DNA from: Eledone cirrhosa
Taxonomy: Eukaryota
Assembly (NCBI GenBank): GCA_964016885.1
Contig: OZ024741.1
Span: 238,328,001 to 238,392,000 of the forward strand
Length of the DNA stretch: 64,000 nt
Direction of reading: 5' to 3'
Numbering within the stretch: position 1 is the first letter of the stretch; each line of letters starts with the position of its first letter. Positions 1 to 23,216 of the stretch are shown here, piece by piece. Under the pieces are notes generated by a model. The model was not told where the DNA came from. It saw only the letters and a list, made by a program, of their open reading frames with translations, and ran no database searches. A program made the translations under genes and the position numbers.

Positions 1-1717
1 AAGACACTTGAATGCTAACAACATAGGGTATTGAGCACTCTTCAATAATACTAACAGCTTGACAACCTCTCTTGTACTGGTACCACAAAAGCATTCAGTA
101 TACTCTAAAAAATGGTTGGTGTTAGGAAGGGCATCCAGCTATAGGAAACCTGCCAATTAGAGGGTCGCAAAGGCTCTTCAAGGATATGAAAATATCTCTA
201 GTGCTGGTACAATGATAAAATATACCAGGTACACTCTGTAAAGTGGTTGGCATTAGGAAGAAAGTTCTGTTAAAATTGAATGTATCTGAGCAAGACCATA
301 ACAATTTTATGTAAGATTATGATCTCATTTTTATCACCTAATCTATGCCATATATACATGCCATAATGCTTTTCAACAAAATATTTGTTGTTCCTAATCT
401 CTCGTCTTTATCAGAAGTCATATTCTTAAGATGTAAATAGTGTTATTCAAATAAATTCTATTTTTAACCTATGTCAATCTGCTTTGCTTTTATTAGTCTT
501 TGTCTATATTTTCCATATTTCACATATTATCATTTACATACTTGATATAGTTTGTATTTAAAATTGTAAATATATCTTTCAAAACTTTGAAGTTGCAAAA
601 TGGAAGGATCATTAGTGTGTAGAACAAAGTTCCTTGTAGCATTTGTTCCAGATCTCTGCTGAGATCAACTTTGTCTTTCATTCTTTTGGGGCTGATAAAG
701 TACTGTATCAGTTCATGTCTTATAGTATTTGTTGCTTGCTTGCATGGTAGACTTAATTTGTTGCCTGGTTTAACGCCATCACCTGGCCCTTGGGTGCCTT
801 TAACAGAATCCATTCTGTTGCAAGCATTTAGGTCAGGTCTCCTTTTCTTTCACCAGTCTCAGGGCCCCTGGGAATGGTTATGGACCCTGCCCTTTCCACC
901 TTGACTAAACAGTAAAATAAATAGACCGATTTAATGAAAGAAATAAGATATCTCAACTATTACTCTTATCATTGCAATACTGAAAACTTTTCTAACTATC
1001 AGCTTATTGCTTCCTTCTAAATGTAATATTTTCAATTAGTTTACTATATTAATAATATGCAATAACTTGCCTTGTTGTATATAGTTACATCACTTACCAC
1101 TTCATATTCTTATCTCATATCCAGCTGGGATTGAATTTACCTTTCATCCTTCAAGGTTCATTCAACTCAATCCATTCACAAAGTTTTTGTGTTTGTGAAA
1201 ACATGCAAATTTATTTAATTTTGTTGCTAATTATTATTTTTTTGAAGAAACTTTGTATTAAATTAATGTTAACTATTTTGTGGTTAATTATTGCTTGTTA
1301 TTTTTTTTATTTTTTTAAATTAATATTATGAGTAAAATGAAACATTTGATTTTTAAAATAAAACTTGTATAACTTAGTCTTATACTAGAAATTAATGAAC
1401 TTTGTTTAAAATATCACAAAAAATATCTTATAGAAATATAATTTCCTTATTTTCCAAGTACAAATAAATGTTTACTTATTATAAATAAAAGCTTATTTTA
1501 TTTTTAAAATACATTATACATCAATATTTATATAAATATTATTTGTATAAAATATATTCAAGCTTTACAAAAGGCATAGAACTATTTAGGTATGTCTGAG
1601 CAGTGTATATCTGGTGAGGCACAAACTAAATTTCTTACCAATCACTGATATTAAAGAAAGTTAAGGCTAAATACGTGCACACACACACTTTCTCTCTCTT
1701 TCCTGTTATAGTAGTTC

Positions 1718-1771
<54 letters not shown>

Positions 1772-1855
1772 TTTTTACTTCTTTTTATGAAATATATAAA
1801 AATTATATTTTATCTGAGAATTTCTAGTGAACGAATACAATGAGGAGAAACTTAC

Positions 1856-1985
1856 TTGTGCTTTTGTAGAAGTTTATGGTATGTGACAAGAGGACTACAT
1901 CATCTATGCACTGTTCGATGTAACTGCTGCAGCAATAATGTAAAAATGTTGATGGACTAGAAGAGGTGTGAGTCAGATAGGGAAG
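1856..1985 (-). promoter_or_regulatory. Protocadherin-type first-exon/promoter module, orphan copy 1
   Basis: Donor CAA|GTAAGT; + strand block TGTAACTGCTGCAGCA; TGAGTCA at 1969-1975 followed by GATAG. Same layout as the modules upstream of genes B-D. Confidence 0.6.
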
Positions 1986-4900
1986 AGAGAGCAGTTAACA
2001 TTTTTCTCTGCATTTCTATTATTGCATGATCTCCAAGTACAGTGAAAGTTACTTGAGTACAGAATAGCTCATTGTTCCATACATAAAATAGAAACTTCAG
2101 TTTGTATGCAGAGGGTATTCATAAATGCTTCCATAAAAACTTTACAAGTGAAATCATCTTTACACAAAAATTTTGTTTTGGTTCATTACATAGTGATTTA
2201 AATCTCAAGTTTTATCAAATAAAGTATACTAATTTTGCCCTGTCATATATAGTATATATATCAATAAGCAAGGGGAAACGAATATTGAAAACTTTCGCTA
2301 AATTCATTGTATATAAAGAACTATTAAATCAATGGTATAAATTAGTTTATGAAAATATTTTAAATAAAAACGTTTATGGGGGAATGATATTATTTGAATA
2401 TATTTCCACTTATTAGACAAAAATTAAATAGTAACTCAAAACGTAATTGTTTTGCTATACAGGTAAAAATGATTTAAAATGTATATTTTAATCTTTAATG
2501 GGTTGACTGAAAAAATGTTGACAGTACGATTCTTCCTTTGATAACTTCTGTTTCTTTAGATTATTCTTGAGTAGAAAACAAACATAATTTAGAAAATATT
2601 TAAATTCCTTATCTTTTGTTCATATTTACATGCTTTAATTCATGTTACAATCATCAGCAGATACCATAACTTATCAATATATATACATTATATTTGGTTG
2701 GGATTGAACTCATAACTCATAAAGGTTACAAATAAATTTTGATATATACTTGTAAAAGCTTTCGATATATAATGTGTACATATAAGTTGTTACATTTATT
2801 TATTTCTAAGGGGCCTCATAGCACCAGGAGAGGCCAAAGACTATAGCCAAACACAAAGATAAAAAATGAAAAAGCTATAAATAAATAAAGGAAATATCCA
2901 TAGAAACTTCCATCTAATAGCTGCTATTTCAGGATCTCTCATTTAATTGGATAAGTGATCATTTTAGTCTTTCTCTAAAAAGTTAACTCTCTGAAGAGAA
3001 AGAAATCTTTTACCATAAACAGAATTTTTAGCACAATTTGCAAGAAGCTTTACATATGTGGAACCATCAACTGGTAACATTTACACACATTAAAGAACAC
3101 ATAAATATGTCAGTCTCATCACAACAGTTACCATACTCTAGTTATATGTACCTGAGAACAGAACCATCCGGTGGTTACATTTACATACGTTAGAAATCAC
3201 ATAAGTATGACAGTTCCAGCATTCTCCTCTGTTAAGTCAACCCCAAAACTACCAAAATACAAAAATTATAGATAGTGTCAAAGCCTTCACTAGAAATATT
3301 GGTGACATTGAATTTATAACTCTAAGGGTTAGGGTTACAAATATAGTTTGATATACACTTGTTTATAGTGATATACACTTCAGTATATAGTGATGTGTAA
3401 AAGAAAGTTGTCACATATATTCCTTTCCAGAGGTTCCATAGCATCAAGAGAGGCATATATTAGAATATAGGTAAATGTAAGCTTAATAAAACCCAAACCA
3501 CCTCGGGGGGAAAAAAAAAAAAAAAAAAAAAAGAAATTTCAACAACTATCAAAATAATTATGAATATTCTCACTAGAAATAGTGGAGACTTATGTATAAA
3601 AGAAGTAATATTTATTGGTTGTCTGCAACCAGTTTATCAATCAACAAAAGCTTCTTAACTATCACCAATTTATTGCATAATTTAAATATTGCAGGCCTAA
3701 CATTCTTGCCATGCCTATGTGTCTCTGAACATACCTTAACAGATTTAGTATTGTTTACCGTATACTGCCCATTTAAAAAATTTTAGTTTAAGGTCAGAGC
3801 TTGTTAAAGCTGAAATAACTAAATATATTGGTTTTCTTTTTCCATTTATCTATAAAGCAACTTTTATCAACTTCCTCTTATTTGTTGCAATGACAAGTCT
3901 TCATGTATATATATATGTGTGTGTGTTTTAGCATCGTATATATTACTAAAATTGAACAAACTGCTACTCCGAGTTCATCTTTTGAATTTTTAGGCAATAG
4001 TGGAGTTACTATTGAGCATAAACGATGTATATATGGATATATATAATCATTATTTTACTCATGCTTTTTATGTTGCATGGTTTTGGCAGAGTGATTTGGT
4101 CTGTCAAATCCTATTTAGAATTACTGTTCTTGTAGACATTCTATCTATTTTTGGTATGGTTTCTGTGGCTTGATGCCCTTCTTAACACCAATCACTTTAC
4201 AGAGTGTACTGGGTACATTTTAGCATGGCATCAGTACTAGTAAGATTGTCTTGTGCTTCATTTTCAGGGCAACATGAGCATGAGGGTGAATAGAAGAATG
4301 GGCAATAACAGAAGAACCAAATTGAGGAGTTGAGAGGAACAGAACAGAGGAATAGGAGTTAGAAGGTAGTAGAGGAGAGAATATTGGAAGAGAGAGACAA
4401 TATATATATATCTTTCTTTTAATTTGTGTTGCTTAAGACAAGAGAAGCTTTTATCATAATTTCTACTATGCATTAAATAAAACAGGGTTAGTTATAAAAT
4501 ATGTAGCACTTTTTTGGCTTTATAGGAATATTATTTCAGCATTTCAGAGCATAAACATTTTCTGCTTTTTTGATGCTATATACATTTAATTATTTTTAAA
4601 ATATCCATACTTTATTTCTTTTGTAATAAACAGGTACTCTATCAGTTTCTTGATTTAGAAAATTTAGCAAATATCACTTAAATTGAATAATGTACCTAAT
4701 AGAACTGAATAATTTGAATCTTTTTATTCCATACTTTGGATGGAGACATCTCACCAAATTCTTTCTTCTCCCCTATTCCTGTTTTTGTCTCCCTTCACCT
4801 CTGATAATTTCACCCTGCTAACAGAAATGATTTTTCCCCAATGACACATAGTATTGGCATTCATGTTTTAGATTATATTTTTCTTTGGAATTTTATAAAA

Positions 4901-6222
4901 TTATATCTTCTGGAAAATTTATAAAATAAAAAAAATAAACATTTATTTGTTAATCTTTCATTTTTATTTGATTAAAAAAAATATCTTTAAATTAATCTGA
5001 CTATTCTCTAAACGATTTTTCTCTTTAGGTGATGAGTCAGTAGAAATCAGTGGAATTTTCAATGATTTGTGAACAGAAAATATAGTTTTCTTTTGTGTTG
5101 AATGTTGTTGGGAAAATATTAATCAAAATGCAAATAACTCATTTCCTCTGTTTTAAATGCAAATATAATCAAGAGAAGTAATGAATATAATTACATTTGA
5201 AACAGACCATTCATTACTCAGTTAAAACTTAAGTAGTATTATGTGATATATACTCATGTATGAAACATTTACAATGCACCATATATTTTGAATTGAGGTT
5301 TTGTAGGTACAGTAGATAGGTTGTGTGTTGGTTTTTCATGTTGAATTTCCATGGAAATAGGTGTGATTTAGACAAGTATATATATGGTGTATTGTAAATC
5401 TCAACTCCATTATCACTTTAACTTAATGTTGAATTTCTTCAAAAAAATATTCCCAATTTGTTAATTTATTAAAGTATATCTTCAGTTTTCATATAATTTT
5501 TATCTTACTTTTTTGATAACGAATTTCTCATAAAATAGAAAAATGTAGTCATTTAAAATATTCTATACAAACACCATGGATATGTTATATCATGGGATCA
5601 TAGGATTATTATTGCACACTGCTTTTCACAGTGATGACAGTTTGTCATTATAACATTCCACATTCTTTTATAAAGGGACAAAGGATTTGCCATTCCTTTA
5701 TCTTTATTTTTCCCCTACTTCATTCACTGCATCTCTTTGCCCCACTTTTAAAGTCATTGTTCTCTTCCATCTCTTTCATCATTAGTAGGATCCCTTCCCC
5801 AAATTTCTTTCTGCTTTATGATAGGTTCTATCTAAGGTTGTAGTTATCACTGTCATGACTGCTTGTATCTAAGGCTGTATAGTTGCTCCTTGGCTGCTGT
5901 TGTTGCAGCTTCTATAATAGCCACTACATGCCTTTTTCCCATCGGGAAATTATGGATTTTTCAATTTTGTTTTTTTATTCCTGACTGTTAACACTAAATT
6001 TTAACTGTATTATTAGAGTTTATTATTTTGTTAACTTTGCCTTTCATCCTTACGGGGTCGATAAAATAAAGTACCAGTAATGTACTGGGTAATAGCTGGC
6101 CTTGTGCCAAAAGTAGAAACAATTATTTTGGTATTATATTTTGCAGCTCATATTGACATATTTAATATAATTTTCACTGAACCAGTTGAAATAATTGACA
6201 AGTTTACTTATAATGTATAATG

Positions 6223-6560
6223 GAGGCACATGGTTCAGTGGTTAGAGCATTGGCCTTGCAATCGAAAGGTTGTGAGTTCAATTCCCAGAGCAGGTGATGT
6301 GTTGTTTCCTTGAGCAAGACACTTCATTTCACATTGCTCCAGTTTACTCAGCTGTAGAAATGAGATGATAGGGACTGGGGTCCATATCATTCCACTGCAA
6401 AGTGGTCGTGGAGGTGCCACGGCAAAAAAGCACCCAGCACTCACTGTAAATGAGGTTGGTGTTAGGAAGGGCATCCAGCTGTAGAAATCAAGCCAGAATC
6501 AGTTCCCGTCCCACCCTTGCAAGCAGGGAAAAAAATGGACGTAAAATGAAAAAAAAATAA
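6223..6560 (+). mobile_element. tRNA-derived SINE with a CORE-like middle and an RTE-derived 3' tail
   Basis: A box TGGTTCAGTGG and B box GAGTTCAATTCC; CCTTGAGCAAGACACTT middle; tail matches the 3' end of the RTE at 14.7 kb; TSD AATGTATAATG at 6212-6222 and 6561-6571. Confidence 0.8.
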
Positions 6561-8004
6561 AATGTATAATGTATTCAGGGTAGGGGATTATCTTTACCCT
6601 GGCAAGCTTTAACTGCAATTAAGGAAGGCCTACAGAGGAGCAAATAAGATTTATTTGCCAAGAATGAATAAAAAATGAATTTATACTACTTCTACTTACA
6701 ATAATAACAGTGATTTCTAATTTAGGTATGGGGGGAGGACAATTGGGAGGGAAAGTCAATATTGACTCCAGTACTTGACTGGTACTTATTCCATTAACCC
6801 CAGATTTGGGACAAATACCACATAGGATTATATTTGATGCTCTACTGATTCTGACACTTAATCACCCTAAATAATAATTTCTAAATAATAGAAAAATATA
6901 TATCAATTCTATTTGTCTTCTAGTTCACCAGTTTTCCTCTTGAGTAAAAGTTGTTAATCAAGTTATATTTTATTATACAGTTAATGTTTAGCTAATGATA
7001 AGACTACCACTTAATTAAAATAAGCATATGATTAAAATCATTAAACCATCTTTTATTCATAGTGTATCTTGGACTACATTATATGACTTGCCCTTTCTCT
7101 TTTAAGATGTTATAATTTGAGGTAAATTTGTTAGCTATTCATATCAAATTGAGCAACCACATAGAGAGGCTCTATTTTTATTTAATATAATTTAATATAT
7201 AGTTTTGTATATTTGTGTCAAGATCTACTGCTCCTTGTAGATGTGCTATTAGTTATTGATGTATGCAAATGTGTTCAACGAGATAATTAGATTCATGAAG
7301 CTGACATATCCATGTTAGTAATTGATTCTTGCAGTGGAATCTGTTGGGTTTGCAATTGTAAGTAATTTATATTAAATCGATGGTAAGTTAGGAGAAATAG
7401 TGAAATGCTATGAAGAACCTTCATATATCTTGTCAGCATATGCAACTGCACCTAGAAATTTAATCTCTAAATGCAGGACTAGGTAAGGTTTTTCATGCAT
7501 GATCTACAGTTGCCCATGCATGCAAGTCTCACCCCACCTCCATGCTACTGATGCTCTCCTAGAGAAAAGCAAAAGCAGATGTGTTTTGGCAACTGTGATA
7601 TTACAGGCATTGCAATCAGAATGCAGAGACAGGTGCCACAAGAATCTCATCCAATGCGCTGACGATTTTGTTAATCCACTGTCCTGTATTAGTACTCTAT
7701 CTGCTCAGAAAGGATGAAAATCAAAGCTGAGCTCAGTGGGATTTGATTTTAGCGTGCTAAAATCCAGAATAAATACTGCAAGATATTCTTGTCCTTGTTT
7801 TAATGACTCTGCTGATTTGCTACTTTTAACAATAGTAGTAATGATGAAAGGAAAAATGATTACCAGTAGTGTAATGTGGAAGGTCAGAACAAATCAATAA
7901 AAAAAGTGATCAAAATTCATGTATAAATAAATTAGTTTAACTAAAAACTAATTTACTTGTACATGAATTTTGATGATCACTTTCTTTTTTATAGTATTTA
8001 ACTA

Positions 8005-8580
8005 ATCTCCAACTTGCACTTAACAGGTTTGATGCCGAGTGCTGCATGGCTGGAATGAAAATCAGTGCTGCGAAAACTGAGATACTTGTCCTCTCAAGGA
8101 AACCTGCACAGCGCACTTTACATGTGAAAGGAGTTCTACTAAAACAGGTGGAGAAGTTCAAGTGTCTCGGGGCCATGTTCATGAGTGATGGAAGGCAGAA
8201 GGCTGAATTAGATGCAAGAATTGCAGAGGCTGGTACAGTAATGTGCCTGCTTCAGCATTCAATTCAATAATCGGAAGGGAAATAGGTGTAAAAGCCAAAC
8301 TTGCTACCTTTAATTTGGTATTTGTGCTATGGTTATGAATTTTGGGTAATGACCGAAAGAATACAATTGGAAATAGAAGCGGCCGAAATGGGGTTCCTCT
8401 GAAGGGTCTTTAGAGTAATGTTAGTTGATAACATGCATGGCTTGGAGATCAGTGAGTCACTCAAGGTAGAGCTGGTTCTTCTCTGAATTGAGAGATCACA
8501 GCTCCAATACTATGGACATGTGTTGGAGATGGTTGCTTTTGGCAGGACCTGCTGGACGGAGTGTTTGAGGATTCTGTCCC
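8005..8580 (+). mobile_element. Decayed RTE-clade LINE reverse transcriptase fragment
   Basis: ORF 8046..8270 GMKISAAKTEILV...VEKFKCLG...ELDARI; further degenerate AAEMGFL and QYYGHV motifs interrupted by stops. Confidence 0.75.
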
Positions 8581-8889
8581 CATGACCTTTTCAGGAATGA
8601 GTGAGTGAAGAAGAAGTATTTAACTATGCTAAGAACTATAACATTTTCTTAAAAACTTGGCCCTCAGTTTAAGGATGAAATCCTTATTATCGCTACATCC
8701 CTCCCTCCAGTCCAGAACAATGGTCTCTTTTATGAATATAACTGCATAATAAAAAAGAAAAAGAGACTGGTTATAAAAGCATCAATATAATATATTAACT
8801 GACTAATACCATTAATTTCAACATATCATTTTAAAATTATATCTAATATTCCTTCAAGGTTATCTAGACATTTTTGTCATTAATTTCTC

Positions 8890-9180
8890 AACATTATTTT
8901 ACACTTGCTTTTCCATGCGTGCAAAGATTGGGTGGGTCCTCTTCTACACAGTCTACTTCTGTATTTCTTCATCTCTGTGAAGCCTAGCATTTTGAGATCA
9001 GTTCTAATCCATTCTGCCCAGGTTTTCCTCAGTCTTCTCCTACAGCTACCTGGCACATCTTCACTAAAAGAAAAATCATCAGCCATACGCATTACTTGAC
9101 TATATCAGTGTACAGTTCTCTCCTGCACATTTCACTTGATTTTTCTTATATCCTGTTTTTCTTTCAATTCATCTACACCG
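8890..9180 (-). mobile_element. RTE LINE 3' end fragment
   Basis: RRRLRKTWAEWIRTDLKMLG resembles the C-terminus of the RTE at 14.7-15.1 kb. Confidence 0.65.
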
Positions 9181-9189
9181 TTTAACCAC

Positions 9190-9505
9190 CAAGGACAATT
9201 ATGCTGACATGGTTTCTACATTAGAGGATGACGCTCCACCTTTATCAACAGTGCAAACGAGGGTAGCTGAATTTAGGAGGGGAAGGGAGAGTCTTGAAGA
9301 TAACCCATGGTCTGGACATCCTACAACTGCCCCCTCTGAGGAAAACACTGATCGTGTTCACCACAGTGTTGAATGACAGGCAACTGATTATAAATGAAAT
9401 AATCAATGCTATTAGTATATCCCGTGTGAGAGTTGAGAATATTTTGCACAATGAACTTGGCATGATGAAGGTTTCTGCTCGATGGGGGCCTCATCTTCTG
9501 ACAGC
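9190..9505 (+). mobile_element. Mariner transposase N-terminal (HTH) relic
   Basis: AEFRRGRESLEDNPWSGHP followed, after a frameshift, by ILHNELGMMKVSARWGPHLL (WVPHxL-like motif). Confidence 0.8.
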
Positions 9506-10930
9506 TGGTGTTTTAATTAAGCAAGAAAAATAATACAGTTTGGACAAAATTAAAAATAAGCACACCATTATAATTTGTTTCAACGATTTTGTAAAATGAT
9601 AAAAATATATATGTAATGAATGAAAGCAACAGTAAACAATATTTTTTGTTGTCCAGGAGCTGATATTTTATTATAATTCCAAGAATTTCTTACATTAGTC
9701 GGAAAGCAGTGAAGTTCACGACGAGACTCCTCATTTACAGTGGGATTTATTTTTAATTCCATGAATGCAAATAAATAATCATTCCAAGGCAGTTAATGGA
9801 AATTTCAATTTGTACATTAAAATAATTAACTTAAAAAAAATATCATGAAAAATAAAAATATGTTGGTGTATATGAATAGTTATTTAGTATTGACTGCCAA
9901 AGGCTTTAACATTTAAACAAGATTTTCTTATATTCTTACAATATGAAATTCCAAATTGGTATTTAATTTTTTATAAATAACACTAGTTTTATACACAATA
10001 TTTTAAAATCATTTTTTTTTAAAACATAACCAGAGTATTAATTTATTTATTAATTTATTTGACACTCTTTATCACCAATGTAATTTGAAACAGTTTCTTT
10101 AAAAAAGAAACAAAAAACTGCTTTGTATAATTGAGCTGGCCAATAAGAAAACATTTTTACATTTCTCTCCATATTTACAAAATTTAATTACAAATGAAAA
10201 AAAAAAAAATTCTACTGTACAACATCAGACAATCTATGATGGCATAAAATTACATAAAATGGCAGTTAACATCATACATGTTGATAGTTATGTATAGCTC
10301 ACAGCCTGGGTAAAAATATCAGGTTGATTTGGAAAAATTGGTGAATCATGTTTGCGATGTTTTTGTACTTATGAAATTTTAATGAAATCTTGAATTTACA
10401 TTAAGATTTGTGAGATGATTCTATGCAACATTTCCTTTAAACCTATTTTATCATGCATGATATTTATTACAACAAGAATTTTACACCGATTAGTGAGAAC
10501 CTTCCAATTTAAGATTTTTTACTAAGAAAGATTTTGAAAATGAAATGCACTTTCTTTAGTTTGTTTAAAATGTTAACATTAAAAAAAAATAAAGCCTTTT
10601 AATTTATTTCTCTAAGATTCCTGGAAAATTGTTCTCAGATACCTAGTTTTTGAAAAGTTATCAGTTGTTATGTTTTGTTTCCTTTTGAGATAATAGGCAA
10701 ATTTTTCTTTAATTTAATTGTTTTTGTTGTGCATCCATTGGAAGAATATGTGCCTGGAATTTGAAGAATATTGTTGAAAATGATAAACAAATATACATAT
10801 AAATTCCGTAAACAAATTATTTAAAGTTACAAACTTGAATAAATAACAATTTGCTAAATACAGGTTATACTATAGTTTTATTAGTATTTAAATGACAGTT
10901 ATAGTGCTTCTATATTTTGTCATATTTTCG

Positions 10931-11263
10931 CCATCACAACCACTTTACAGCCCATACTGTAAAGTGGTTGTGATGGTGACACGACAAAAAGCACCCAGCT
11001 CACAGTAAAGTGGTTATGATGGCGACATGGCAAAAAGCATGCACTCCACACTGTAAAGTGGTCGTGTAGGTGTCACGACAAAAAGCACTCAGTACTCACT
11101 GTAAATGAGGTTGACGCTAGGAAGGGCATCCAGCTGTAGAAACCAAGCCAAAATAGGTTCTGTATGAGCAAGACATGGTCACCTGATATGGCATCGCTCA
11201 CAACAGGATAACACATCTAACCCATGCCAGCATGGAAAAATAAAAGTTAAACGATGATGATGA
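10931..11263 (+). mobile_element. 5'-truncated RTE-tailed SINE with internal ~45-bp tandem units and a (GAT)n tail
   Basis: Repeated CTGTAAAGTGGTTGTGATGG...CAAAAAGCAC units; AGGAAGGGCATCCAGCTGTAGAAA; GATGATGAT tail. Related copies near 0.1-0.3, 4.2, 14.1-14.4, 17.7-17.9, 27.8, 32.0-32.3, 35.8, 53.8 and 59.5-59.7 kb. Confidence 0.75.
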
Positions 11264-12038
11264 TTATATATATAATCAACTACATATCGCTAGTGATTTA
11301 AGTCATCCAGTTTATGAGTTAAGATTTGTAATTTTATTTTTTTATAAATGATATCTAGTTAATTTAAAATCTGCTTTTAACCAAGATACTGTTTCCACTT
11401 TTAGACCAGTTTTCCTACTACTCTTGAAACACCTAAAAAAATCGGGGATATACCTGATAAATAAACCTTTTCTCACAAATATCATTTAATCATGAACCTG
11501 TTGTCAAACTTTCTGCTCTTAAAAAAATATTAAAGAAATGTCATATGCCTTTCTAAACAGATACTACTCAACATTTGTATAATACTAATTCTTCTATTTA
11601 TCATTTCTGTATGAATGGATAATAAAACAATAATTGTTTCTACTTTAGGCACAAGGCCAACAATTATCCAGTGCATTACTGGTACTTTATTTTATCGACC
11701 CCGTAAGGATGAAAGGCAAAGTTAACCTCAGCAGGATTTGAACTAAAACAATAATGACAAATAGTGTTAAGGGCAAGAGCCCAAATGTTAGTATTTTTTA
11801 TTTCCTCATGGCAACTTTATTTTTCTTGTTACCAATGCAAACTTACACTAGGTTTCTTCAATTTTGGATTTTACCCTAAACAATATCTGTAAAAGAACTT
11901 TAAAAAAGTGGATGCCTCATATTGTTACAACTTCTAGGTTATTGTTTAATACTTCTGGAAACATTTTGAGTATATTATGTGAAACTTATATAGGGTCATT
12001 GCAGAAAAGTTGAGAAGAAAAGCAATTAGAAGACTTAC

Positions 12039-12190
12039 CTACATAATTAACTTTTTTATTGTTGTTGGCTGTGATTGAATATGTCTTCCAATAGAACACT
12101 TCATATGCCATGTTAAAATAATTTTAATCTGATGGTTAAATATTGACTTAGTTGAAATAAGTATCATTACAACAGAGTTGTATTTGTGAG
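12039..12190 (-). promoter_or_regulatory. Degenerate first-exon module, orphan copy 2
   Basis: Perfect donor TAG|GTAAGT. Flanks align by eye to the 20.4 kb copy (TTAGAA-GACTTACC..CAT..TTAA..ATTGTTGTTG..AATATGTCT..AGAA). The CTG-rich block and TGAGTCA are not intact. Confidence 0.4.
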
Positions 12191-12912
12191 TGTTGAAATA
12201 TATGTGTGTTATATATGAGCTTTATATTTTCTTTGTTAAAATCAAGTTGATTCATTAGTTCCTTTTAATAGGAAATAGATCTAATGAAAACATTATCTAT
12301 ATTTTGATTTTTAGGAGATTGCCCTTATTTTTATGATGTAAATATTTCCATTATTATTTGGTTATTCAAAATGTTAAATAAAATATAAATGTCAAACAAA
12401 ATAATTTAATTTTGCATATAATTTATATAAAGATTGCTTCAGAATATGGTATTTAAATGAAAATCATAAGCTATTAATCCAATATACAGTTTACAATTTC
12501 TGGTAGAAGTCAAAAAGATTATTTGTTGATAATTATCATCCTCAATCTGTAAATAGTTTTGTTTTTTTTTACTTCAGAAATACTTTTGGTTGCTTGTTTT
12601 TTTAATTTTTTTTTTAAATCTGAAATACAAAAATGTAAGAGCTTTTATTTGATGTGTATATTTATTCTGATATGGTTTGTATATAAAAAAATCCAATAAA
12701 TTAACAATATTTTGATCTGATCTGATCCAAAGGTGATATGATAATCTCAGGTGTGCGTGTACGTGCGTGCACACACATATGTTTGTTTCTATATTCACAT
12801 GGTGATAATGCATAGCAATGGTTTTGTAAAATTTGAAATTTAATAATTTTTTTTTTGAGTAATTTGAGAAGAATCTGAGAATCATCTTAGTGTATTATGA
12901 GTAATGAATAAT

Positions 12913-13099
12913 TGTTTCTATTTTTGGCACAAGGCCAGCAATTACCCAGTGTATTACTGGTACTTTATTTTATCGACCCCGTAAGGATGAAAGGCAAAGT
13001 TAACCTCGGCGTAATTTGAACTCAGAATGGCAAGGGCCGTAACTCTATGCGTCACAACATGGCGTCCGACCCTCTACCGATACTGCCAATCCACCGCCC
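12913..13099 (-). mobile_element. Full-length tRNA-derived SINE, second family
   Basis: B box GAGTTCAAAT; core GTTAACTTTGCCTTTCATCCTTACGGGGTCGATAAAATAAAGTACCAG; 17-bp TSD TATGAGTAATGAATAAT at 12896-12912 and 13100-13116. Other copies near 6.03, 11.63, 31.5, 42.5, 43.2, 52.1 (two in tandem), 58.0 and 61.95 kb. Confidence 0.88.
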
Positions 13100-13377
13100 T
13101 ATGAGTAATGAATAATGTGATTAAATTAGAATGCCTTATGTAATAATGTAAATATAACTTAATAGTCTATAATAATAAATGCAAATGTGTGTGCAGACAG
13201 TCAGCAAATATAAGTATCATACCTAAGTGTTAAAGTAAACTCCAAAATCAAATATGAAGTCATGAATTCGTGGCATTCAACACCATGAAAGATGTTTTGA
13301 ATTTTGATTATAAGTAATTCACTATACACTGCCCTCTTAGAAAAGAGGCTACAGAGAATCCAAGAGTAAAAAAAAAA

Positions 13378-13987
13378 TTGTTTTATTTAAAGCTGTATAT
13401 AGCTATGGTGCAGCCACACATAGAATTTGCATCACCAGTCTGGAACCCCTATCTTGCTCAGAACATTGACCACCTGGAAACTGTTCAGAGACGTGCAACC
13501 AAGCAAATACCCTCCATCAGGCATCTACCGTACTCTGAACGCCTTGCTTCCCTGGGCATGGATACATTGAAGCTCTGACGCCTGGCAACTGACTTGGTAA
13601 ACACCCAGAAAATTATTAACCATCTTGCCAAAAACAACCCTGAGCACCTTTTTGATTTCCATGTGCCTACAAAGTCAGAAAACAGCACAGCTCCCATGAC
13701 TTTCAGAAACGTTTTTTCATCTCAGAGTTGCTGAAGCATGGAACAAACTACCTGCATCGGTTATTAGCTATCGAGACACTGCATTCTTTAAAACCTCCAT
13801 GCTGCCTGAGATTCGCCAACACTACACCTGATGCCCCCCCCTCCATACACACGCACACATGTATTTCATGACTCGTATACTGTTCATTTTCCTGACATTT
13901 GTATATTATTCTATGTACTATACAAGCACCTTTGATGAGTTGTAGTGCACCTGAGCACTGTACACTATAATTTCATTATTATTATTA
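13378..13987 (+). mobile_element. CR1-clade LINE 3' fragment
   Basis: KLYIAMVQPHIEFASPVWNPY...LETVQRRATKQIP...YSERLASLG, followed by a 3'UTR and an (ATT)n tail. Confidence 0.88.
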
Positions 13988-14117
13988 AAATTGGTATACA
14001 TTTAAATCTCATTGAAGGTACTGTACTGTTTTACTTATGCCTTTGCTAATTATTGGTTCATATCTCATATTGCATAATCAAGTTGGGGTCACCATTTTGT
14101 AGAGAATAAACATAGTT

Positions 14118-14390
14118 CATCATCATCATCACCGTTTTACGTCCGTTCTTCCACGCTAGCATGGGTTAGACGGGTTGTCCTGTTGTGTGCAGTGTCTGGT
14201 CAGCTGACCATGCCTTGCTCATACAGGAACTGATCTGGCTTGATTTCTACAGCTGGATGCCCTTCCTAACACCAACCTCATTTACAGTGAGTGCTGGGTG
14301 CTTTTTCGTGGCGCCTACACGTCCACTTTACAGTGTGGGCTGGGTGCTTTTTTGCCGTGGCACCTCCACGACCACCTTGCGGTGAGGTGT
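14118..14390 (-). mobile_element. RTE-tailed SINE copy
   Basis: (CAT)n end on the + strand; body matches the 6.4 and 11 kb copies. Confidence 0.75.
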
Positions 14391-14668
14391 GTGGGGGCAT
14401 ATTGTTTATATGCTTCAGCATGTACCCATGGGAGGTCGGGTACTCTGTATTACTGCGTGACGCCAGAAGTCACGGTCGTGTGTCATTGTATTAAATAAAA
14501 GACAGAAATAGTTGACTTACTTCCCCAACCAACACTAAACACAATTAGGCTTTTCTGCAGTGCAATACATACTACTCCCACCATCAAACCTAGTTATGTC
14601 CCTTTATCATGAGATGCTGCCCACCACTTGTTTCTAAATGAGAAAAATTATTTGGAATGTAATCATTG

Positions 14669-14711
<43 letters not shown>

Positions 14712-14712
<1 letters not shown>

Positions 14713-17690
14713 CATCATCATCATCATTTTACGTCCGCTATTCCCTGCTTGCAAGGGTGGGATGGGTCCTATTCAGCACAGCATCTCTCCACTTGTCACA
14801 GTCCTTTGTCATCTCCTCGGTGAGTTTCAGCGATCTGAGGTCTGCTCTCACCACCGCCGCCCATGTTTTTCGTGGTCTACCTCTACTGCTTCTTCCTTCT
14901 ACTGGGATTTCTTGGAACTTCTTTACCCAGTGGTCATCCTCCATGCGCATCACATGTCCATACCATCTCAGCCTTCCCTCCTGCACACCACAACTTATCC
15001 CTCTTTTACTCAGTTTCTTTCTCAACTCGTCCATGCTTGGTCGTTCACGCACATTGACATTGCACATCCAACGGAGCATACTTGCTTCATTTCTCTCCAG
15101 CTGTCACATATCCTCTGTAGTTGCTGCCCATGTCTCACTACCATGCATCATATAACCGTCCTTTTGTACGCAGGGAGAAGCCCTTCTTTGTCAACAGCGA
15201 TTACTACTGCCAACTTTCCCTGTACATCTACTGCATACGTAGTTTTCCCTACCTGTTAGTTTACCTGCTATCCCACTACATCTCTTATGTACCCAAGATC
15301 TGCATTGCGTACATTTTATGGAATTTATGCCAGTTCCTTTCCTACATATAGAACATGGCCATTTCCCTTATGGAATCAGAGTATTGTCCTCTCTTCTACT
15401 TATCAACACTTTTGTCTTAGCTATGTTCACTCTCAGACCTCTTGATTCCAACTGCTGTTTCCATAGCCAGAATTTATTCTCTAGCTCCTCTACTGATTCT
15501 GCTATAAGAACCAGATCATCAGCATAGAGAAGTTCCCATGGGCATCCAGTCTTAAACTCCTCTGTTATGGCTTGGAGGACTATAATGAACAAGAGTGGGC
15601 TGAGGACCGAACCCTGATGTACACCTACTTGTATTCCTCACAAGCCATTCCTCTACACCTAGTTTCCTTAGGGACCACCAGATGACAGATCGGGGTACCT
15701 ATCAAAAGCCTTCTCTAGGTCAACAAAAGCTAAGTATAGTGGCTTATTCTTCTCTAAGAACCTTTCTTGTAGTTGCCTCACTAAGAAGAGGGCATCTGTT
15801 GTACTTTTCCAAGGCACAAAACCAAACTGCATCTCATCTTATTTGACCCCTTTCTCTAATCAGTTGCACTAATATTCTCTCTGCCACTTTCATAACCTGA
15901 TCCATCAGCTTTATGCCCCTATAATTGCTCCTCTAGAGCATCCCCTTTACCTTTGTAGCAATTTATGAGAATACTGCTGCACCAGTCTTTGGGTATGACT
16001 ACACCATATATAGTTGATTAATAATGTGTGCAACTAGTTTAGTGCCTACTTCTCCTGATGCCTTCAGCATCTCAGCAACTATCCCCGATGGTCCAGCAGC
16101 CTTACCATTCTTCATTTCCTTAATGTACCCTATATTCATCAATCTCAATAGCTGGTCCCTCTGTCGGGTCTACTGGGGGTAATTTCTCTCTCTCCCATTT
16201 GTTCTCGACATTCATCAGTCACTCATAATGACATATCCAGGCCTCCTTTTTTTTTTATCATTCGTGACACTAAGTACACTGGTATCATTCCGGACACACT
16301 TATCTCCAACAACATCCTGATTTGCACTGACACACTGCCTTGCAATGCGGAACACTGCACGTCTCTGATCTTCGCATAGCAGAACATTGGCAAACCTCCT
16401 ACTCTCAGCCTCCCTGCGTGCTAAGTAGACCTGATGTCTAGCTTCTCTCTTAGCAGCTGTGTATCCTTCTCTACTCCCACCATTTTTCCAAGCCTTCGAT
16501 GCCAGTCTTTTGTCTCTAAGGCCCTATCTACCGTGCTGTTCCACCACCAGGTCACTGTCTGGTTGGAGCTCTGCCCCAACCATAATTTCCTTCAGTAGCC
16601 TGCAGTAAGTTGTCACGCAAGAAATCGTCTTCTTTTTCATCATACACATCTTGAAGGGCTTTGCTAAATTTATATTTTAATAAAAGGACTTTTAGCTTCC
16701 AGACCTTTCTTCTCCACACCTTCCTGTATGTCTCATTCTTCCTCTTACTGAGATGTCACTAACAACTAATCTATGCTGTGGGGTACATTCTTCCCCAGGG
16801 TATGCCTTAGTATTTGACAGCATCTGTCTGTCTAACTAGCAGGAAGTCAATCTGGCTTACGTGCTCGCCTGATTTGTAGGTTATTAGGTGGTTGGTAGGC
16901 TTCTGGAAGTTAGTGTTGGTTAGTGCATTTACATCACAAAATTCAAGAAGCCTCACTCCTTCATTTCTTGAGCCATAACCGTGCCCACAATGTACCCCAG
17001 TGTATCCATCCTGGAGCTGTCCAACATGTCCACTGAAGACCCTGCTAGCATAACGATGTTTGTAAAAGTTGCTCGTAAAAGCAGTCTTTCTATTCTTTAC
17101 TTAGGCCTGCCTGGGGAGTATAGGCAGAGATGATTGTCAGTAGTCTCTTGCCTACAACTAATCTAAGCTTAATTATTCTATTACTAATTCTAACTACTTC
17201 TATTGTCTTATTGATCCATCTCTCAGCCAGTAATATGCCCACCCCACCTAACCCATCATCATTACCCACCCAGAAAAGCTTAGAACTATGATGTTTGCCT
17301 GCGATTAGTCTTGCAGAGGCACCTCTCCATCTCACCTCTTGCACACAGCACACATCCACATGCCTTCTCTCCAGCATCTCCGCTATCTCACCAGATCTAC
17401 ATTAAGTGTGGCAACTCTGAGATGCAACGTCTCATTCTTTTTCCTGTTATGCGATTGCCTGATGACGGTCATGGGGTTCTCACACATGGTCTCACTAGTC
17501 ACCCCACTACCGTGCGCAGCCCTAACATGGTTAGTGTTATTGCTGTTTACGCAGTTGTTTTTGTGCGATTGCTTGATGACGGTCGAGGGTGTTCTCGCAC
17601 ATGGCTGCACCAGTCACCCCACTACCGTGCGCAGCCCTAACATGGTTAGTGTTATTGCTGTTGACGCAATTGTTGCAAATTTCATTCATT
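14712..17690 (-). mobile_element. Near-full-length decayed RTE-clade LINE (APE endonuclease plus RT)
   Basis: LRVATLNV and DVCCVQEVRW (endonuclease), ELLYADDLVL (RT), LRWYGHVMR...RGRPRKTW (C-terminus); (GAT)n tail next to (TA)n; many frameshifts and deletions. Confidence 0.93.
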
Positions 17691-17940
17691 GCGCTCATAG
17701 ATTTTGGCAGTAGTATATATACTGGTTGGATGCCCTTCCTAACACCACCACCACTTTACAGCATGGACTGGGTGCTTTTATTCATGCCACCAGCGCTAGA
17801 GAGGTTGTCTTACTGGACTCAGGGGCCCTCTTTACCCCTCCATTTTATAGCATGGACTGGGTGCTTTTATTTGTGCCACCAGCACCAGAGAGGTCATCTT
17901 ACTGGACTTAGAGGCCCTATCCATCCCTCAATTTTACAGC

Positions 17941-17944
<4 letters not shown>

Positions 17945-18015
<71 letters not shown>
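17945..18015. repeat. (TA)n microsatellite
   Basis: Directly visible. Others lie at ~1720-1765, 14669-14710, 33014-33069, 33435-33486 and 41282-41310, and an imperfect (GT)n at ~29140-29230. Confidence 0.95.
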
Positions 18016-18019
<4 letters not shown>

Positions 18020-18404
18020 TGATATATGTAAACTTGGTTGTGATAGCTAAGTGGATAAAATTGTGTTATAGCTCTTTGGTTGTGAGGTTTTAGTTAATTG
18101 CACATTTTGGACATATTGCTGTCATAGACATGACAAAGAAAGTAAGATATGGAAGATGATTCTTTTAAATATATATTGGCTCAAAAGGTTAGGTTTAGCC
18201 TAGTTTCTGCATCAAATATCATATGTAAGTGTGTATATAATATATTCACTGAGAGAATATGAGAATAATTTTTTGTCAGATGCCTGTCAATGTTCTTGAA
18301 ATTTCAATCTGAACCATTTATTTAAACCATGGGGATAGATTGTTCTAATTCCTGTGTCCATGCTTGTTTGTTCTGTTTAAATTAGAGAACAAAACATTCA
18401 CACC

Positions 18405-18552
18405 AAGCATAGGCAACCTTTTACGAGCAGTGGGCTGCATGAGATATGGCTCATCATAAGGTGGACCACATGACTAAAAAACAGTTCAAGGTAATTTCTA
18501 ATTAGAAAGCCAAATGGGCCACATGCAACCAAAAGGCTGCAGTTTACACCTG
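18405..18552. mobile_element. Possible decayed hAT-type MITE
   Basis: GGCAACCTTTT...GGGCTGCATG and GGGCCACATGC...GGCTGCAGTTT resemble hAT MITE subterminal motifs; TIRs are poor. Confidence 0.3.
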
Positions 18553-19299
18553 ATTTATTATACACAAACCAAAGGATTAACTCACAACCTGCAGGTAGAC
18601 AAGTACACTTAACACTTAAATGGTTATACTGACTATATTGTCTTATAGGACAATAACATAGTCAGTGTCTTGTTGATATGTGAGAGAGTAAAAGGTTTGT
18701 TACAGAAAGTTAATTTATTTGTGTTGCAGAACTTAGATATATTTATCTTCTTAAACTAGGCTAAAGTACTTATGTACTGTGGATTTAAGCTGTATATTTC
18801 CTTAAAAAAAAAGAAAACTAATTTCTCTATACTCTCTTTTAAAGAAAGTTTTCATTAAGATATTGTGAAACGTTTTCTTCTATTTGTTACTCAATCCTTG
18901 TTGAATCTTAGGTTGAGTTTGTTTCAATGTTTGGAAATTTGCAACGGTTACTTAGCCAATTAATAAATTATTCCATTGATGATGATTGTGAAATTACAAC
19001 TAGATCTTACTATCCCTTTCTATCCCATATATGTTTATTACATTACAAGCATTTTAACTGCTATATATATATGTGTATATATATATTATATATAGATATA
19101 TAGTGTTTCAATATGAACATACACTGCATATACTCACATCTTTCCCATGAAAATACAAAAAAAACAGCATGGAAATCAAAATATATCATCATTTGTAAAT
19201 GTATGTAATATGGAGGTATAACTTTTCTACATGGGCACAACCTACAGAATATATATTAAACCACACCACAGTCCCTACCTTGCTTTCTTTCCTCCATCT

Positions 19300-20140
19300 A
19301 CACCTGCTCCACTTTGGTAGGTTACATCCTCTCCTTCCCAACTGGACTAGTTCCACCAGGGAGTTGGATGAAGCTTTACTACTGTGGAGAGAGCTGGGTT
19401 TGTCAGTCTCAGTTACTGATGAGGATAGACGGAAGCAGAGAGTATGGGACAATCTGCGTTTGAGGGGAAACTTCCAACTTTCTCTTTGATCTTTCCGATA
19501 AATTTTCTAGGTGCCGTTTACTTCTGCTAGCACAAAGTTCTCAGAGGACTGGATTGATGCCCTGCTTTTGGCCAACATTAGTGGCCTTCTCAGTCAGGGT
19601 AAACTCCGCATCTCCATTGCACTTTGTGTGGGAGCTGACGTCCGAGATGCCACTGTGGTAGGTCCCTTGACTCCACAGGTTTACATGGTTTATCCTGCTG
19701 CCTGAATGCTGGTCATTTATCCCATCACACCAAGCTAAACCTGACCATCAAACAGGCCATGGCTTGGGTTATTATCCCCACAGTTCTGGTTTATCCAGAA
19801 GTGATGGGGAGAGACCAGATGGTGAGAGGTAGGTGTCTCATCTGGGACATCAGTCATGGACGTCACAGTGAATGTTAGGGCCACTGCTTCTGCTGCCGAA
19901 CAGAATAAAATTCGGAAATACCAGGATTTATCAAACAATTATTTTTTCCAGCCTGTAGCATTCAAGATGTTCAGTGGAGTTGGACCGCTGACGGCAAAGT
20001 TTTTGTCTTCAATGGTGGCTCGCCTTACTTAGTTGTCAGGTGATGCCAGTGAGGGTGCCTGGTTATTTCAGCACCTTAGCCTCGCCATTTCCCATGGTAA
20101 TGCTGCAAGCGTGTTGGCTTGCCTGAAAGTGTGCAGTTAA
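19300..20140 (+). mobile_element. Decayed CRE-like non-LTR retrotransposon, restriction-like endonuclease C-terminus
   Basis: DWIDAL...LRISIALCVGA, RPDG..GRCLIWD, AEQNKIRKYQDLSNNYFFQPVAF and WLFQHLSLAISHGNAASVL read across frames. Confidence 0.7.
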
Positions 20141-20427
20141 CCCCCAAGGTGTGAGGTGTTGCAGATTGTCACACTTGGTCGTGAATTGCTCCCTCTCTTT
20201 TTTTCCTTCTTTTTTCTTTGCTTTATCATTTTTGTTCATGATTTATATTATTGTGTTATTATACATGGTTTAGACATATTTGTCCTTCTGCGCGAATTGT
20301 GAGCAATTTTTGGTGTTATTTATGCATTTGTTATGTTATTTATGTATATATTTAAAACATATTTGCAACGTTATTCTACTGTAAATTTATACAACTGTAA
20401 TAAAAGTTATAACTTAGAAAGACTTAC

Positions 20428-20545
20428 CGGCATTGTTTAATCCATTGTTGTTGTAATATGTCTAGAAACATGTATTCTTGTGTCATTGTAGCAGTAGTAG
20501 TAGTGTATATTGCTGGACCAGAGTTGTGAGAGTCAGATAGTGGGA
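20428..20545 (-). promoter_or_regulatory. First-exon/promoter module, orphan copy 3 (~600 bp past the gene A stop)
   Basis: Donor CCG|GTAAGT; CATTGTTTAATCC as in other copies; TGTAGCAGTAGTAGT; TTGTGAGAGTCAGATAGTGGG. Confidence 0.65.
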
Positions 20546-21134
20546 TTGAGTATATATTTATAGACGTATGGCTAATCATATTCAGATGTCTTCTAAACGT
20601 TTTCCTTCTCCCTTATTTAAAACTATATTTTAAATTTATTAAAGTGTTTTCCTTTTAATTTACTTTGAAGATATTTGTTATTCAAAATTTCTATTGAAAT
20701 GTTATCACTGTAAAAAAAAAAAGTAGCTGAGTTCCTTAAAGCAAAAGATAAACTGCTGGAATAGTATGTCTTTGAATCAGTTTCAGTTCAAAGTTATAAT
20801 CATTTCAGTATAATTGGAAAAAGCAACTAAATTATCTCTTTTTTTGTTAAGTCATTGATTATTATAAATATTAATTTTAGAAATGATTATTTATATGAAA
20901 TATATATTAATAAATGACAAAACAAATATTAAAAAAAATCAACTGAAGTTATAAGCCGGTATGAATATTAGATTAACTGCTATTTAGATTGTATATCAAC
21001 TATTGAAAATAACATATACAAATCTTTGTCGTTACTGAACTGAATATTGCAAGTGGAAATTATCAAATTATTGGTAGGATTTTGTGATTATTTGTGTTGT
21101 TCTCAAGAAGTAAACATAGTGTATTGGTTGTCCA

Positions 21135-21214
21135 CTATACAGGTTCTAGATAGGTTTCTTGTTCTTGGCTATGTTTTGGTGTTGGAGGTATGTTTGGTCG
21201 GTAGTTACTGTATT
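21135..21214 (-). CDS. PCDH: Protocadherin A, last coding exon (EYSNYRPNIPPTPKHSQEQETYLEPV*); spliced protein 879 aa
   Basis: TTTTACAG|AA acceptor matches the phase-1 donor; TAG at 21135-21137; conserved in all five units. Confidence 0.88.
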
Positions 21215-22705: not shown

Positions 22706-23216
22706 TATATATATATAATGTGAGTAATATTAAATATTATCCAATAACAAGTATATCACAGAGTCGAAATACTTTATAAATAACAAAGAGTGTTTAAAAT
22801 ATTTACAATCGTTTCATCCTAGCTCAAGGCTGGATTCATCGGAGTATATAATATATATATATATGTTGGTGGCTGAGTCGTGTATTGCTTATAAAAGTGA
22901 ACATAATGTTTTGATTACAACAGTAATTTGAACTCACACTAATGAGATTTGATTTCTCAGATCAATTTAATACTGTCTGATATATCAGAAATCTGTGCTG
23001 ACACTTGCACAAAATTTCACATTATTATTATAGATTTTTGTTTCACAGAAGCAAAATAGCTTTGTTATTTAGCTAAATAAAAAAAATTCATTTATATAGT
23101 TTATTTATTTTATAGTTTATATTAAAAAAAATAGTATAAATCAACATTTGAATTGGATTTTTGAAATGGGTTTTGATTCTTTCCAGTTTGAATATTCTGA
23201 ATTATTGTGTCATTAC

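What the first reader, a model, noticed from the sequence alone, without database searches (positions are those of the whole stretch)
1856..20545. Three orphan protocadherin first-exon/promoter modules with no gene bodies between them
Seen: the module that precedes each intact gene also occurs at 20428, 12039 (degenerate) and 1856, all on the minus strand with intact GTAAGT donors. They are spaced 8-10 kb apart, like the gene units, yet I find no cadherin exon, GWSEGDIT exon or YLEPV exon from 1 to 21 kb, only repeats. Inference: either two gene bodies were lost while their promoters and donors survived, or these are tandem alternative promoters splicing to one protocadherin left of the window. 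The second case would be promoter choice through non-coding variable exons, a partial analogue of vertebrate clustered Pcdh promoter choice in a lineage described as having stand-alone tandem genes.
Basis: partly seen in the sequence, partly recalled or inferred. Interest (0 to 1): 0.78.

Follow-up and report, generated by a model that had tools for sequence, protein, structure and literature searches.

The report
Spare first exons between octopus protocadherins
In an octopod protocadherin gene array, one of three supposedly orphan leader exons sits 2 kb in front of its own gene just outside the window, and the other two are surplus, partly eroded copies, likely left over from gene turnover, that would at most swap the leader of that same protein.

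Summary
Partly confirmed. The three modules are homologous to the short exon before each gene of a minus-strand octopod protocadherin array. 20428 is a clear copy, 1856 is clear in its 5' part, and 12039 matches in its 3' third only. No cadherin or tail-exon relic lies between them, and the module is not a dispersed repeat. But 1856 is not orphan: an intact single-copy protocadherin (gene Z) begins 2.0 kb to its left, just outside the window. Over 1.65 Mb, 61 of 69 gene intervals hold one module, and every gene checked has its own tail exons, so there is no vertebrate-type variable/constant design. The surplus here is one clear copy and one weak copy. Both have lost an internal block that 61 of 61 paired modules keep, and 20428's upstream ATG fits other genes' leaders, not Z's. 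Best reading (0.5): eroding leftovers of birth-and-death turnover at a sub-array edge. Main rival (0.33): 20428 is a retained distal promoter of Z. Either way the ectodomain would be unchanged. No usable RNA covered the surplus modules.

The parts
1856..1981 (-). Proximal module, predicted to be the working non-coding first exon of gene Z; donor GTAAGT follows base 1856. The 5' two-thirds are conserved, the last 26 nt diverged, and there is no ATG 6 nt before the donor
   Evidence: HMM E 6.6e-6 and 8.2e-4; internal block 14/19, inside the paired range; donor-core PWM -1.6 bits; 2,029 bases from the Z exon
1..1855 (-). In-window part of the predicted 2.0-kb first intron of gene Z. Z's acceptor is at G000:C2:238327827 and its ATG at 238327782, both left of the window; its third and last exons lie about 3.9 and 8.6 kb left of the window
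   Evidence: spliced joint of the large exon to exon 3 in 4 of 4 RNA contig sets of a related species
12031..12083 (-). Weak surplus module: only the 3' ~50 nt and the donor are recognisable (last exon base 12039); ATG followed directly by a stop
   Evidence: HMM E 0.013-1.2; donor-core 20.7 bits vs control maximum 15.7; exon-only 35.7 vs null maximum 34.4; internal block 10/19, null level
20420..20551 (-). Clear surplus module (last exon base 20428), 807 bases after the start of gene A's last exon, the usual place of the next gene's first exon. Donor core intact, internal block and TGACTCA element broken, ATG 6 nt before the donor present
   Evidence: E 1e-7 to 4e-12; 34.4 bits, inside the paired range; block 12/19, below all 61 paired modules
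1982..20419. Gap without any protocadherin coding relic; the wider gap scanned is 37% repeats
21129..21235 (-). Last (YLEPV) exon of gene A
   Evidence: loose ends at 21217 in related-species RNA contigs mark its acceptor
23206..23398 (-). Third (GWSEGDIT) exon region of gene A
24223..26625 (-). Large coding exon of gene A (signal peptide, cadherin repeats, membrane segment), last gene of the right-hand sub-array
   Evidence: Pfam PF00028 x5 plus PF08266
29322..29479 (-). Paired module of gene A (donor GTATGT)
41498..41635 (-). Paired module of gene B (donor GTAAAT); closest relative of the 20428 copy among those compared
51212..51362 (-). Paired module of gene C
60749..60895 (-). Paired module of gene D

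Best explanation
The modules are copies of a short exon that precedes nearly every gene of a tandem array of stand-alone octopod protocadherins and is predicted to be its non-coding first exon; 1856 lies 2 kb before its own intact gene Z and is likely Z's working first exon, while 20428 and the weak 12039 copy are surplus and likely eroding leftovers of gene turnover at a sub-array edge. Shown: homology, positions, gene Z, one module per gene in 61 of 69 intervals, absence of coding relics, loss of the internal block. Inferred: an out-of-register unequal crossover (deletion from a first intron to just before the next module, or a duplication of the module alone) stranded the copies before the split from Octopus species. 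Any residual transcript would splice to Z's acceptor, the first protocadherin acceptor downstream, and give the same ectodomain.
For: Gene Z starts 173 bases left of the window. Census over 1.654 Mb: 61 of 69 intervals hold one module, 4 hold two, 1 holds three (this gap) and 3 hold none. Turnover is visible in the array: frameshifted genes at about +257 kb, +119 kb and -171 kb, and relics at -28.8 kb and -286.9 kb. The -28.8 kb relic has a degenerate module 17 kb upstream, so gene death does leave modules behind. The 19-nt internal block scores 13-19 matches in 61 of 61 paired modules and 14 in 1856, but 12 in 20428 and 10 in 12039; 15 of 1000 null sites reach 12 or more. 33 of 35 paired modules with an open ATG 6 nt before the donor face a leader of 3n+2 bases. 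20428 has that ATG, but Z's leader is 45 bases, and 1856 lacks the ATG like 7 of the 8 modules whose leader is 3n. 20428 sits 807 bases after gene A's last exon, the standard place of a next gene's module, and is closest to B's module. Z is a single-copy outgroup between two related sub-arrays (quick tree, SH-aLRT 92). PMC9068888 reports full-gene duplication and scattered fragments in these clusters (passages).
Against: The donor core of 20428 scores 34.4 bits, as good as paired modules (lowest 17.6, next 28.3), and by every HMM 20428 is closer to the family than 1856 is. A and Z orthologues are consecutive in two O. bimaculoides annotations, so any loss is old and a neutral donor could have decayed (accession order only). 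No last-exon remnant precedes 12039 or 1856, although modules normally sit 0.7-2.1 kb after one and an old relic keeps its tail exons. Two other gaps also hold tandem modules before single-copy-type genes. In one, the two exons are 90% identical while their flanks are at 47-53%, which looks like constraint or gene conversion rather than decay. Paired modules are related duplicates, so the counts are not independent. No RNA shows that 1856 is used or that 20428 is silent.
Confidence: 0.5

Rival explanations
1. 20428 (perhaps also 12039) is a retained, working distal promoter and first exon of gene Z. Z would have tandem alternative 5' leaders that tune where or how much it is made; the 20428 form would add 17 residues before the signal peptide and leave the ectodomain unchanged.
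For: Intact donor core. No intervening gene here or in O. bimaculoides annotations. A 20.6-kb first intron is modest: another single-copy gene's only detected module is 82.6 kb away. Tandem modules recur before two other single-copy-type genes, all with GTAAG donors. The 20428 ATG would be in frame and open into Z.
Against: Internal block and TGACTCA element are broken. The in-frame open leader is expected by chance about 1 time in 9 (my estimate from base composition). The full-length annotated Z orthologues start at the ordinary ATG or further downstream, without such an extension. No RNA support (uninformative).
Confidence: 0.33
2. The duplicated unit is phased at the first intron (large exon, tail exons, then the next gene's module). 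20428 would then be Z's ancestral and main promoter, trailing the sub-array, with 1856 a secondary one.
For: Modules track the previous gene's last exon closely (0.7-2.1 kb in most) and the next gene loosely. The last genes of both flanking sub-arrays are followed by a module (20428; -307729, next gene 225 kb away), and the first gene of the right sub-array has none detected.
Against: 1856 keeps the internal block and 20428 does not. The leader frame fits 1856, not 20428. An assembly gap lies upstream of that first gene. The model still needs an origin for two extra modules.
Confidence: 0.08
3. The module belongs to the 3' end of the preceding gene (a 3' UTR element, or an exon of read-through transcripts), so 20428 is simply part of gene A.
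For: Tight spacing after last exons. Only three AATAAA/ATTAAA hexamers lie between A's stop and the 20428 donor, none shown to be used.
Against: 1856 and 943230 have no last exon in front of them. The frame link between the module's ATG and the next gene's leader ties it to the downstream gene. Every large exon shown has an acceptor-like site just before its ATG. A junction after a stop codon would invite nonsense-mediated decay (general knowledge).
Confidence: 0.05
4. Vertebrate-like promoter choice among variable exons that splice to shared constant exons, generating isoform diversity.
For: Several homologous first exons face one gene.
Against: The exons hold no ectodomain. The genes of the left sub-array each have their own tail exons. 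CGCT/AGCG occurs near 1 of 53 donors, and a recalled CTCF consensus matches once in 1.65 Mb, 6 kb from the nearest module. PMC9068888 states that cephalopods do not use this design.
Confidence: 0.02
5. The matches are a dispersed repeat or chance, or whole gene bodies decayed in place between them.
For: 12039 is borderline on the exon-only score.
Against: 24 of 24 genome-wide exact matches to a 21-nt donor-core pattern lie in C2:238.05-238.49 Mb on the minus strand, 20428 among them, and the reversed control pattern has 0. No relic is found where an older relic is detected at 138 bits.
Confidence: 0.02

Closest known systems
Coleoid cephalopod tandem protocadherin sub-arrays (Albertin et al. 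2022, PMC9068888; passages read)
   Same: Head-to-tail multi-exon full-length genes in one orientation, sub-arrays of close paralogues, fragments and pseudogenes among them; orthologues of A and Z in O. sinensis, O. vulgaris and O. bimaculoides.
   Different: The passages read do not describe a shared non-coding first exon, its upstream ATG, or surplus copies of it.
Vertebrate clustered protocadherins alpha/gamma (review PMC7811963; passages read)
   Same: Tandem homologous promoter regions in one orientation; one large exon for ectodomain and membrane segment.
   Different: There each promoter drives its own coding variable exon, joined to shared constant exons, with CSE/CTCF sites. Here surplus first exons are non-coding, face one large exon, and each gene has its own tail. 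The design is nearer Pcdh-beta-type stand-alone genes (recalled), but multi-exonic.
Tandem alternative non-coding first exons of long neuronal genes (general knowledge, recalled)
   Same: Several donors upstream of one acceptor, same protein, long first intron.
   Different: Here the copies are paralogous first exons of a gene family and two are eroded; use as promoters is not shown.
Chelicerate sDscam tandem 5' cassettes (as cited in PMC6339937; passages read)
   Same: Invertebrate convergence on tandem promoters.
   Different: There promoter choice yields different isoforms; these modules would leave the ectodomain unchanged.

Membership tests
Coleoid stand-alone tandem protocadherin array | Cadherin-repeat ectodomain with protocadherin N-terminal repeat | tested here: met
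   PF00028 x5 plus PF08266 in genes A and Z; best hit O. sinensis protocadherin at 87%
Coleoid stand-alone tandem protocadherin array | Full-length multi-exon genes, same orientation, each with its own terminal exons | tested here: met
   All minus strand; own last exon per gene, own third exon except eight genes where none was detected
Coleoid stand-alone tandem protocadherin array | Fragments and pseudogenes within the cluster | tested here: met
   Frameshifted genes and two relics
Vertebrate clustered Pcdh alpha/gamma promoter choice | Each promoter drives a coding variable exon with its own ectodomain | tested here: not met
   Modules are ~130-nt exons with at most two codons in frame with Z; no cadherin exon follows 20428 or 12039 before Z
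Vertebrate clustered Pcdh alpha/gamma promoter choice | Shared constant exons | tested here: not met
   The left-hand genes each carry their own tail exons
Vertebrate clustered Pcdh alpha/gamma promoter choice | CSE with CGCT box / CTCF site at each promoter | tested here: not met
   CGCT or AGCG within 300 nt of the donor in 1 of 53; recalled CTCF consensus once in 1.65 Mb. A crude exact-match test; start sites are unknown
Vertebrate clustered Pcdh alpha/gamma promoter choice | Stochastic single-neuron promoter choice | not testable with these tools
   No single-cell data available
Alternative first exons of one gene | Two or more donor-bearing exons upstream of one acceptor with no gene between | tested here: met
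   cryptic acceptors or poly(A) sites in the gap were not examined
Alternative first exons of one gene | Capped transcripts from each exon spliced to that acceptor | tested here: inconclusive
Dispersed repeat | Copies scattered through the genome on both strands | tested here: not met
   24 of 24 pattern matches in a 0.44-Mb stretch, one strand

The most novel reading that the evidence does not exclude
Octopod protocadherin genes share one ancient non-coding first exon whose ATG opens a junction-spanning upstream ORF ending on the main start codon. Single-copy genes at sub-array edges (Z and two others) have kept two or three tandem copies of it as alternative promoters, giving a regulatory, not ectodomain, form of promoter choice; the 20428 form would also extend Z's N terminus.
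Probability: 0.33. Interest if true: 0.5.

Novelty: new member of a known kind. Interest (0 to 1): 0.27.

Why it matters
As most likely read, this is ordinary turnover in a known type of array and a window-edge artefact for one of three modules. If 20428 works as a promoter, it is a common kind of alternative 5' leader and adds no recognition diversity. The more useful by-product is the map of a conserved first exon in front of some 65 octopod protocadherins, with a frame-conserved upstream ORF. It points to where their promoters are and makes the open question of how single octopus neurons choose protocadherins easier to test. I found no description of it in my searches.

Tried and rejected
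Shared constant exons for the left sub-array: suspected when the GWSEG/YLEPV words were missing there, rejected when each gene showed divergent tail exons of its own. Dispersed repeat: rejected. Relics in the gap: none by tblastn, DNA HMM or protein HMM. RNA: no RNA holder on record. Contigs of 4 runs of a related species (one study) gave no cover over 20428. One of the 4 had slight depth in the bin holding 1856, which also holds a TA repeat. Neither result is evidence. O. vulgaris CAI9733461, between the A (462) and Z (460) orthologues, was not found among the clusters looked up, and a search with gene A showed no new close O. vulgaris cluster (440-1400 aa only). The tree is the quick method; the careful search did not finish. 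Albertin 2015 is not held. The one held supplement of PMC9068888 had no hits; unseen supplements may describe exon structure. Look-ups in the scan's own notes by place and by sequence were empty.
Full report
Setting. The window is G000:C2:238328001-238392000 in a 3.0-Gb genome. It holds four intact minus-strand protocadherin large exons, A to D (open frames 26637-24175, 38501-36087, 49304-46845, 57963-55468), each followed by a GWSEGDIT exon and a YLEPV exon. Pfam finds five PF00028 stretches and PF08266 in A and in the gene just left of the window. The closest named proteins are octopod protocadherins. I read 1.654 Mb around the window. Coordinates outside it are given on the window's scale; add 238328000 for the contig position.

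Observation. HMMs that never saw them score 20428 at E 3.6e-12, 1.1e-7 and 1.2e-9; 1856 at 6.6e-6, 0.073 and 8.2e-4; and 12039 at 1.2, 0.017 and 0.013. A fourth HMM, trained with 1856, gave 12039 E 0.81. 12039 matches only its last 50 bases or so. Its donor core scores 20.7 bits against a plus-strand maximum of 15.7, but its exon-only score of 35.7 barely passes the best of 1107 null sites (34.4), and non-module sites in other gaps reach 38.7. It is probably a real, degenerate copy. A 21-letter donor-core pattern matches 24 times in the genome, all 24 on the minus strand within C2:238.05-238.49 Mb, 20428 included; the reversed control matches 0 times. The module is not a dispersed repeat. No coding relic lies in the gap (tblastn best E 0.25; DNA HMMs best E 0.98, protein HMM nothing), while the same search finds a relic 29 kb left of the window at 138 bits. 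That relic appears with the same 5' start in O. bimaculoides fused gene models, so old relics remain visible. Repeats cover 37% of the gap.

The correction. An intact protocadherin, here called Z, starts 173 bases left of the window, 2,029 bases from the 1856 donor. The 49 other paired modules lie 1.7-12.9 kb from their genes. Z has its own third and last exons. A close relative of it is spliced from large exon to third exon in RNA contigs of 4 of 4 runs of a related species, from one study. Z is single-copy, 87% identical to O. sinensis XP_036365163.1 over its first 360 residues, and falls outside the two sub-arrays that flank it (quick tree, support 92). So 1856 is not orphan, and the surplus is one clear and one weak module.

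What the module is. Across 69 intervals defined by 68 large-exon starts, 61 hold one module, 4 hold two, 1 holds three (this gap) and 3 hold none. Of the four doubles, one is explained by a frameshifted gene that the start search missed, and one second hit is low-complexity (E 0.56). Two look real: 947369 with 943230, and 516649 with a weak 407988 (E 0.035). Each large exon shown has an acceptor-like site shortly before its ATG, so it needs an upstream exon, and the module supplies a donor. Most modules have an ATG six bases before the donor. Of 48 paired modules scored, 35 have it open, and 33 of those 35 face a leader of 3n+2 bases (lengths 29, 32, 35, 38 and 41 were seen); of 9 without it, 7 face 3n. 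The set leaves out 20428, 12039, -307729, one module before a broken gene and one with no acceptor candidate. In 27 of 53 modelled junctions the upstream ORF stops on a TGA that overlaps the main ATG. These are related duplicates, not independent events, but the frame link ties the module to the downstream gene. That it is the first exon, with a promoter in front, is inferred; no start site was observed. First introns can be long: I predicted that the single-copy gene at +575.6 kb would have its module just after the previous gene's last exon, and found a strong one there, 82.6 kb upstream.

How the surplus most likely arose. The array turns over: there are frameshifted genes at about +257, +119 and -171 kb and relics at -28.8 and -286.9 kb, and the -28.8 kb relic has a degenerate module at -11828. 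20428 sits 807 bases after the start of A's last exon, where the next gene's module normally sits (0.7-2.1 kb in most), and is closest to B's module. It keeps a consensus donor core (34.4 bits). But it has lost the 19-base internal block: 12 matches, against 13-19 in 61 of 61 paired modules and 14 in 1856; 12039 has 10; 15 of 1000 null sites reach 12 or more. The TGACTCA element kept by 1856, B and C is broken in 20428, though only 22 of 53 modules have it and A lacks it. Its ATG suits a 3n+2 leader, whereas Z's leader is 45 bases and 1856 has no such ATG. I read 20428 and 12039 as first exons stranded by out-of-register crossing-over at the sub-array edge and now eroding (0.5). Decay in place is excluded; a clean deletion or a module-only duplication cannot be told apart.

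Against that reading. The donor core of 20428 is intact although any loss seems old. In two O. bimaculoides annotations a fused model ending in the A orthologue is numbered next to one beginning with the Z orthologue (XP_052828959.1 and 960.1; XP_014767705.1 and 704.1). In O. vulgaris the A and Z orthologues are CAI9733462 and 460, with 461 unseen. Accession order is only a hint of gene order. No last-exon remnant precedes 12039 or 1856. The tandem pair at 947 and 943 kb is 90% identical in the exon but 47-53% in the flanks, which suggests constraint or gene conversion. A stranded exon with a live promoter would also splice to Z, so origin as a relic and present use are compatible. I give a retained distal promoter 0.33, 20428 as Z's main ancestral promoter 0.08, a 3'-end element of gene A 0.05, and the rest 0.04. 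RNA could not decide: the only RNA-like runs are from another species and do not cover 20428.

Comparison with what is known. PMC9068888 (passages read) describes coleoid protocadherin sub-arrays of full-length multi-exon genes with scattered fragments, and states that they do not splice multiple first exons to shared final exons. This locus fits. Vertebrate clustered protocadherins (PMC7811963, passages read) use coding variable exons, constant exons and CSE/CTCF sites; all three tests failed here (the CTCF consensus was recalled). PMC6339937 (passages read) mentions promoter choice for vertebrate Pcdh and chelicerate Dscam only. Even under the rival reading the ectodomain would be the same; joining 20428 to Z would add 17 residues before the signal peptide. 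Eight library searches (listings and abstract starts seen) showed no paper on a shared non-coding first exon or upstream ORF in cephalopod protocadherins. Albertin 2015 is not held, I did not look up Wang and Ragsdale 2017, and supplements I could not see may cover exon structure.

Verdict. The feature is real but overcounted, and most likely ordinary birth-and-death debris with a fair chance of a plain alternative promoter. New member of a known kind; interest 0.27.

Noticed in passing
window 29322, 41498 and most modules from +250374 to -290820 (window scale): A conserved ATG six bases before the first-exon donor would open an upstream ORF across the junction; leaders are 3n+2 in 33 of 35 such genes and the ORF ends on a TGA overlapping the main ATG in 27 of 53 modelled junctions. 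The frame drifts where the ATG is lost.
   Followed up: partly
G000:C2:239275369 and 239271230 (window scale 947369, 943230): Two tandem modules with intact donors after the last gene of a third sub-array, 90% identical in the exon and about 50% in the flanks, with no last exon before the second. The best candidate for retained alternative first exons.
   Followed up: partly
G000:C2:238844649 and 238735988 (window scale 516649, 407988): Two modules 201 kb and 93 kb upstream of the single-copy gene at +315 kb; the second is weak.
   Followed up: partly
window scale -307729 (G000:C2:238020271): Strong module after the last gene of the left sub-array; the next protocadherin is 225 kb away.
   Followed up: partly
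window scale -28784 to -30612 (L004), module at -11828 (L003): 5'-truncated gene relic with intact tail exons directly after gene Z, shared with O. bimaculoides fused models; degenerate module 17 kb upstream.
   Followed up: yes
window scale +144902 to +92899 (L024-L030): Eight open frames (seven genes, one frameshifted) show a last exon but no GWSEG word; the third exon may be lost or diverged. Their modules also lack the upstream ATG in most cases.
   Followed up: no
window 24223-25700 and the same part of B, C, D: The 3' parts of the large exons are 92-99% identical between neighbours while the 5' parts are about 69-86%, as expected from gene conversion of the membrane-proximal half.
   Followed up: no
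left sub-array modules, e.g. window scale -49.6 kb, -290 kb, -307 kb: The 5' part of the module has expanded into tandem copies of its internal block.
   Followed up: no
window scale +257340 and +263984: The first gene of the right sub-array is frameshifted, has no detectable module, and a 200-N assembly gap lies 6.6 kb upstream.
   Followed up: partly
L106, window scale 571866-571759: A short duplicated piece of the 3' end of the large exon inside the intron of the gene at +575 kb.
   Followed up: no
window 21830-22723: An element with 31-bp inverted ends and a degenerate transposase-like reading frame in gene A's last intron; the Tc1/mariner-like label is my recollection, untested.
   Followed up: no
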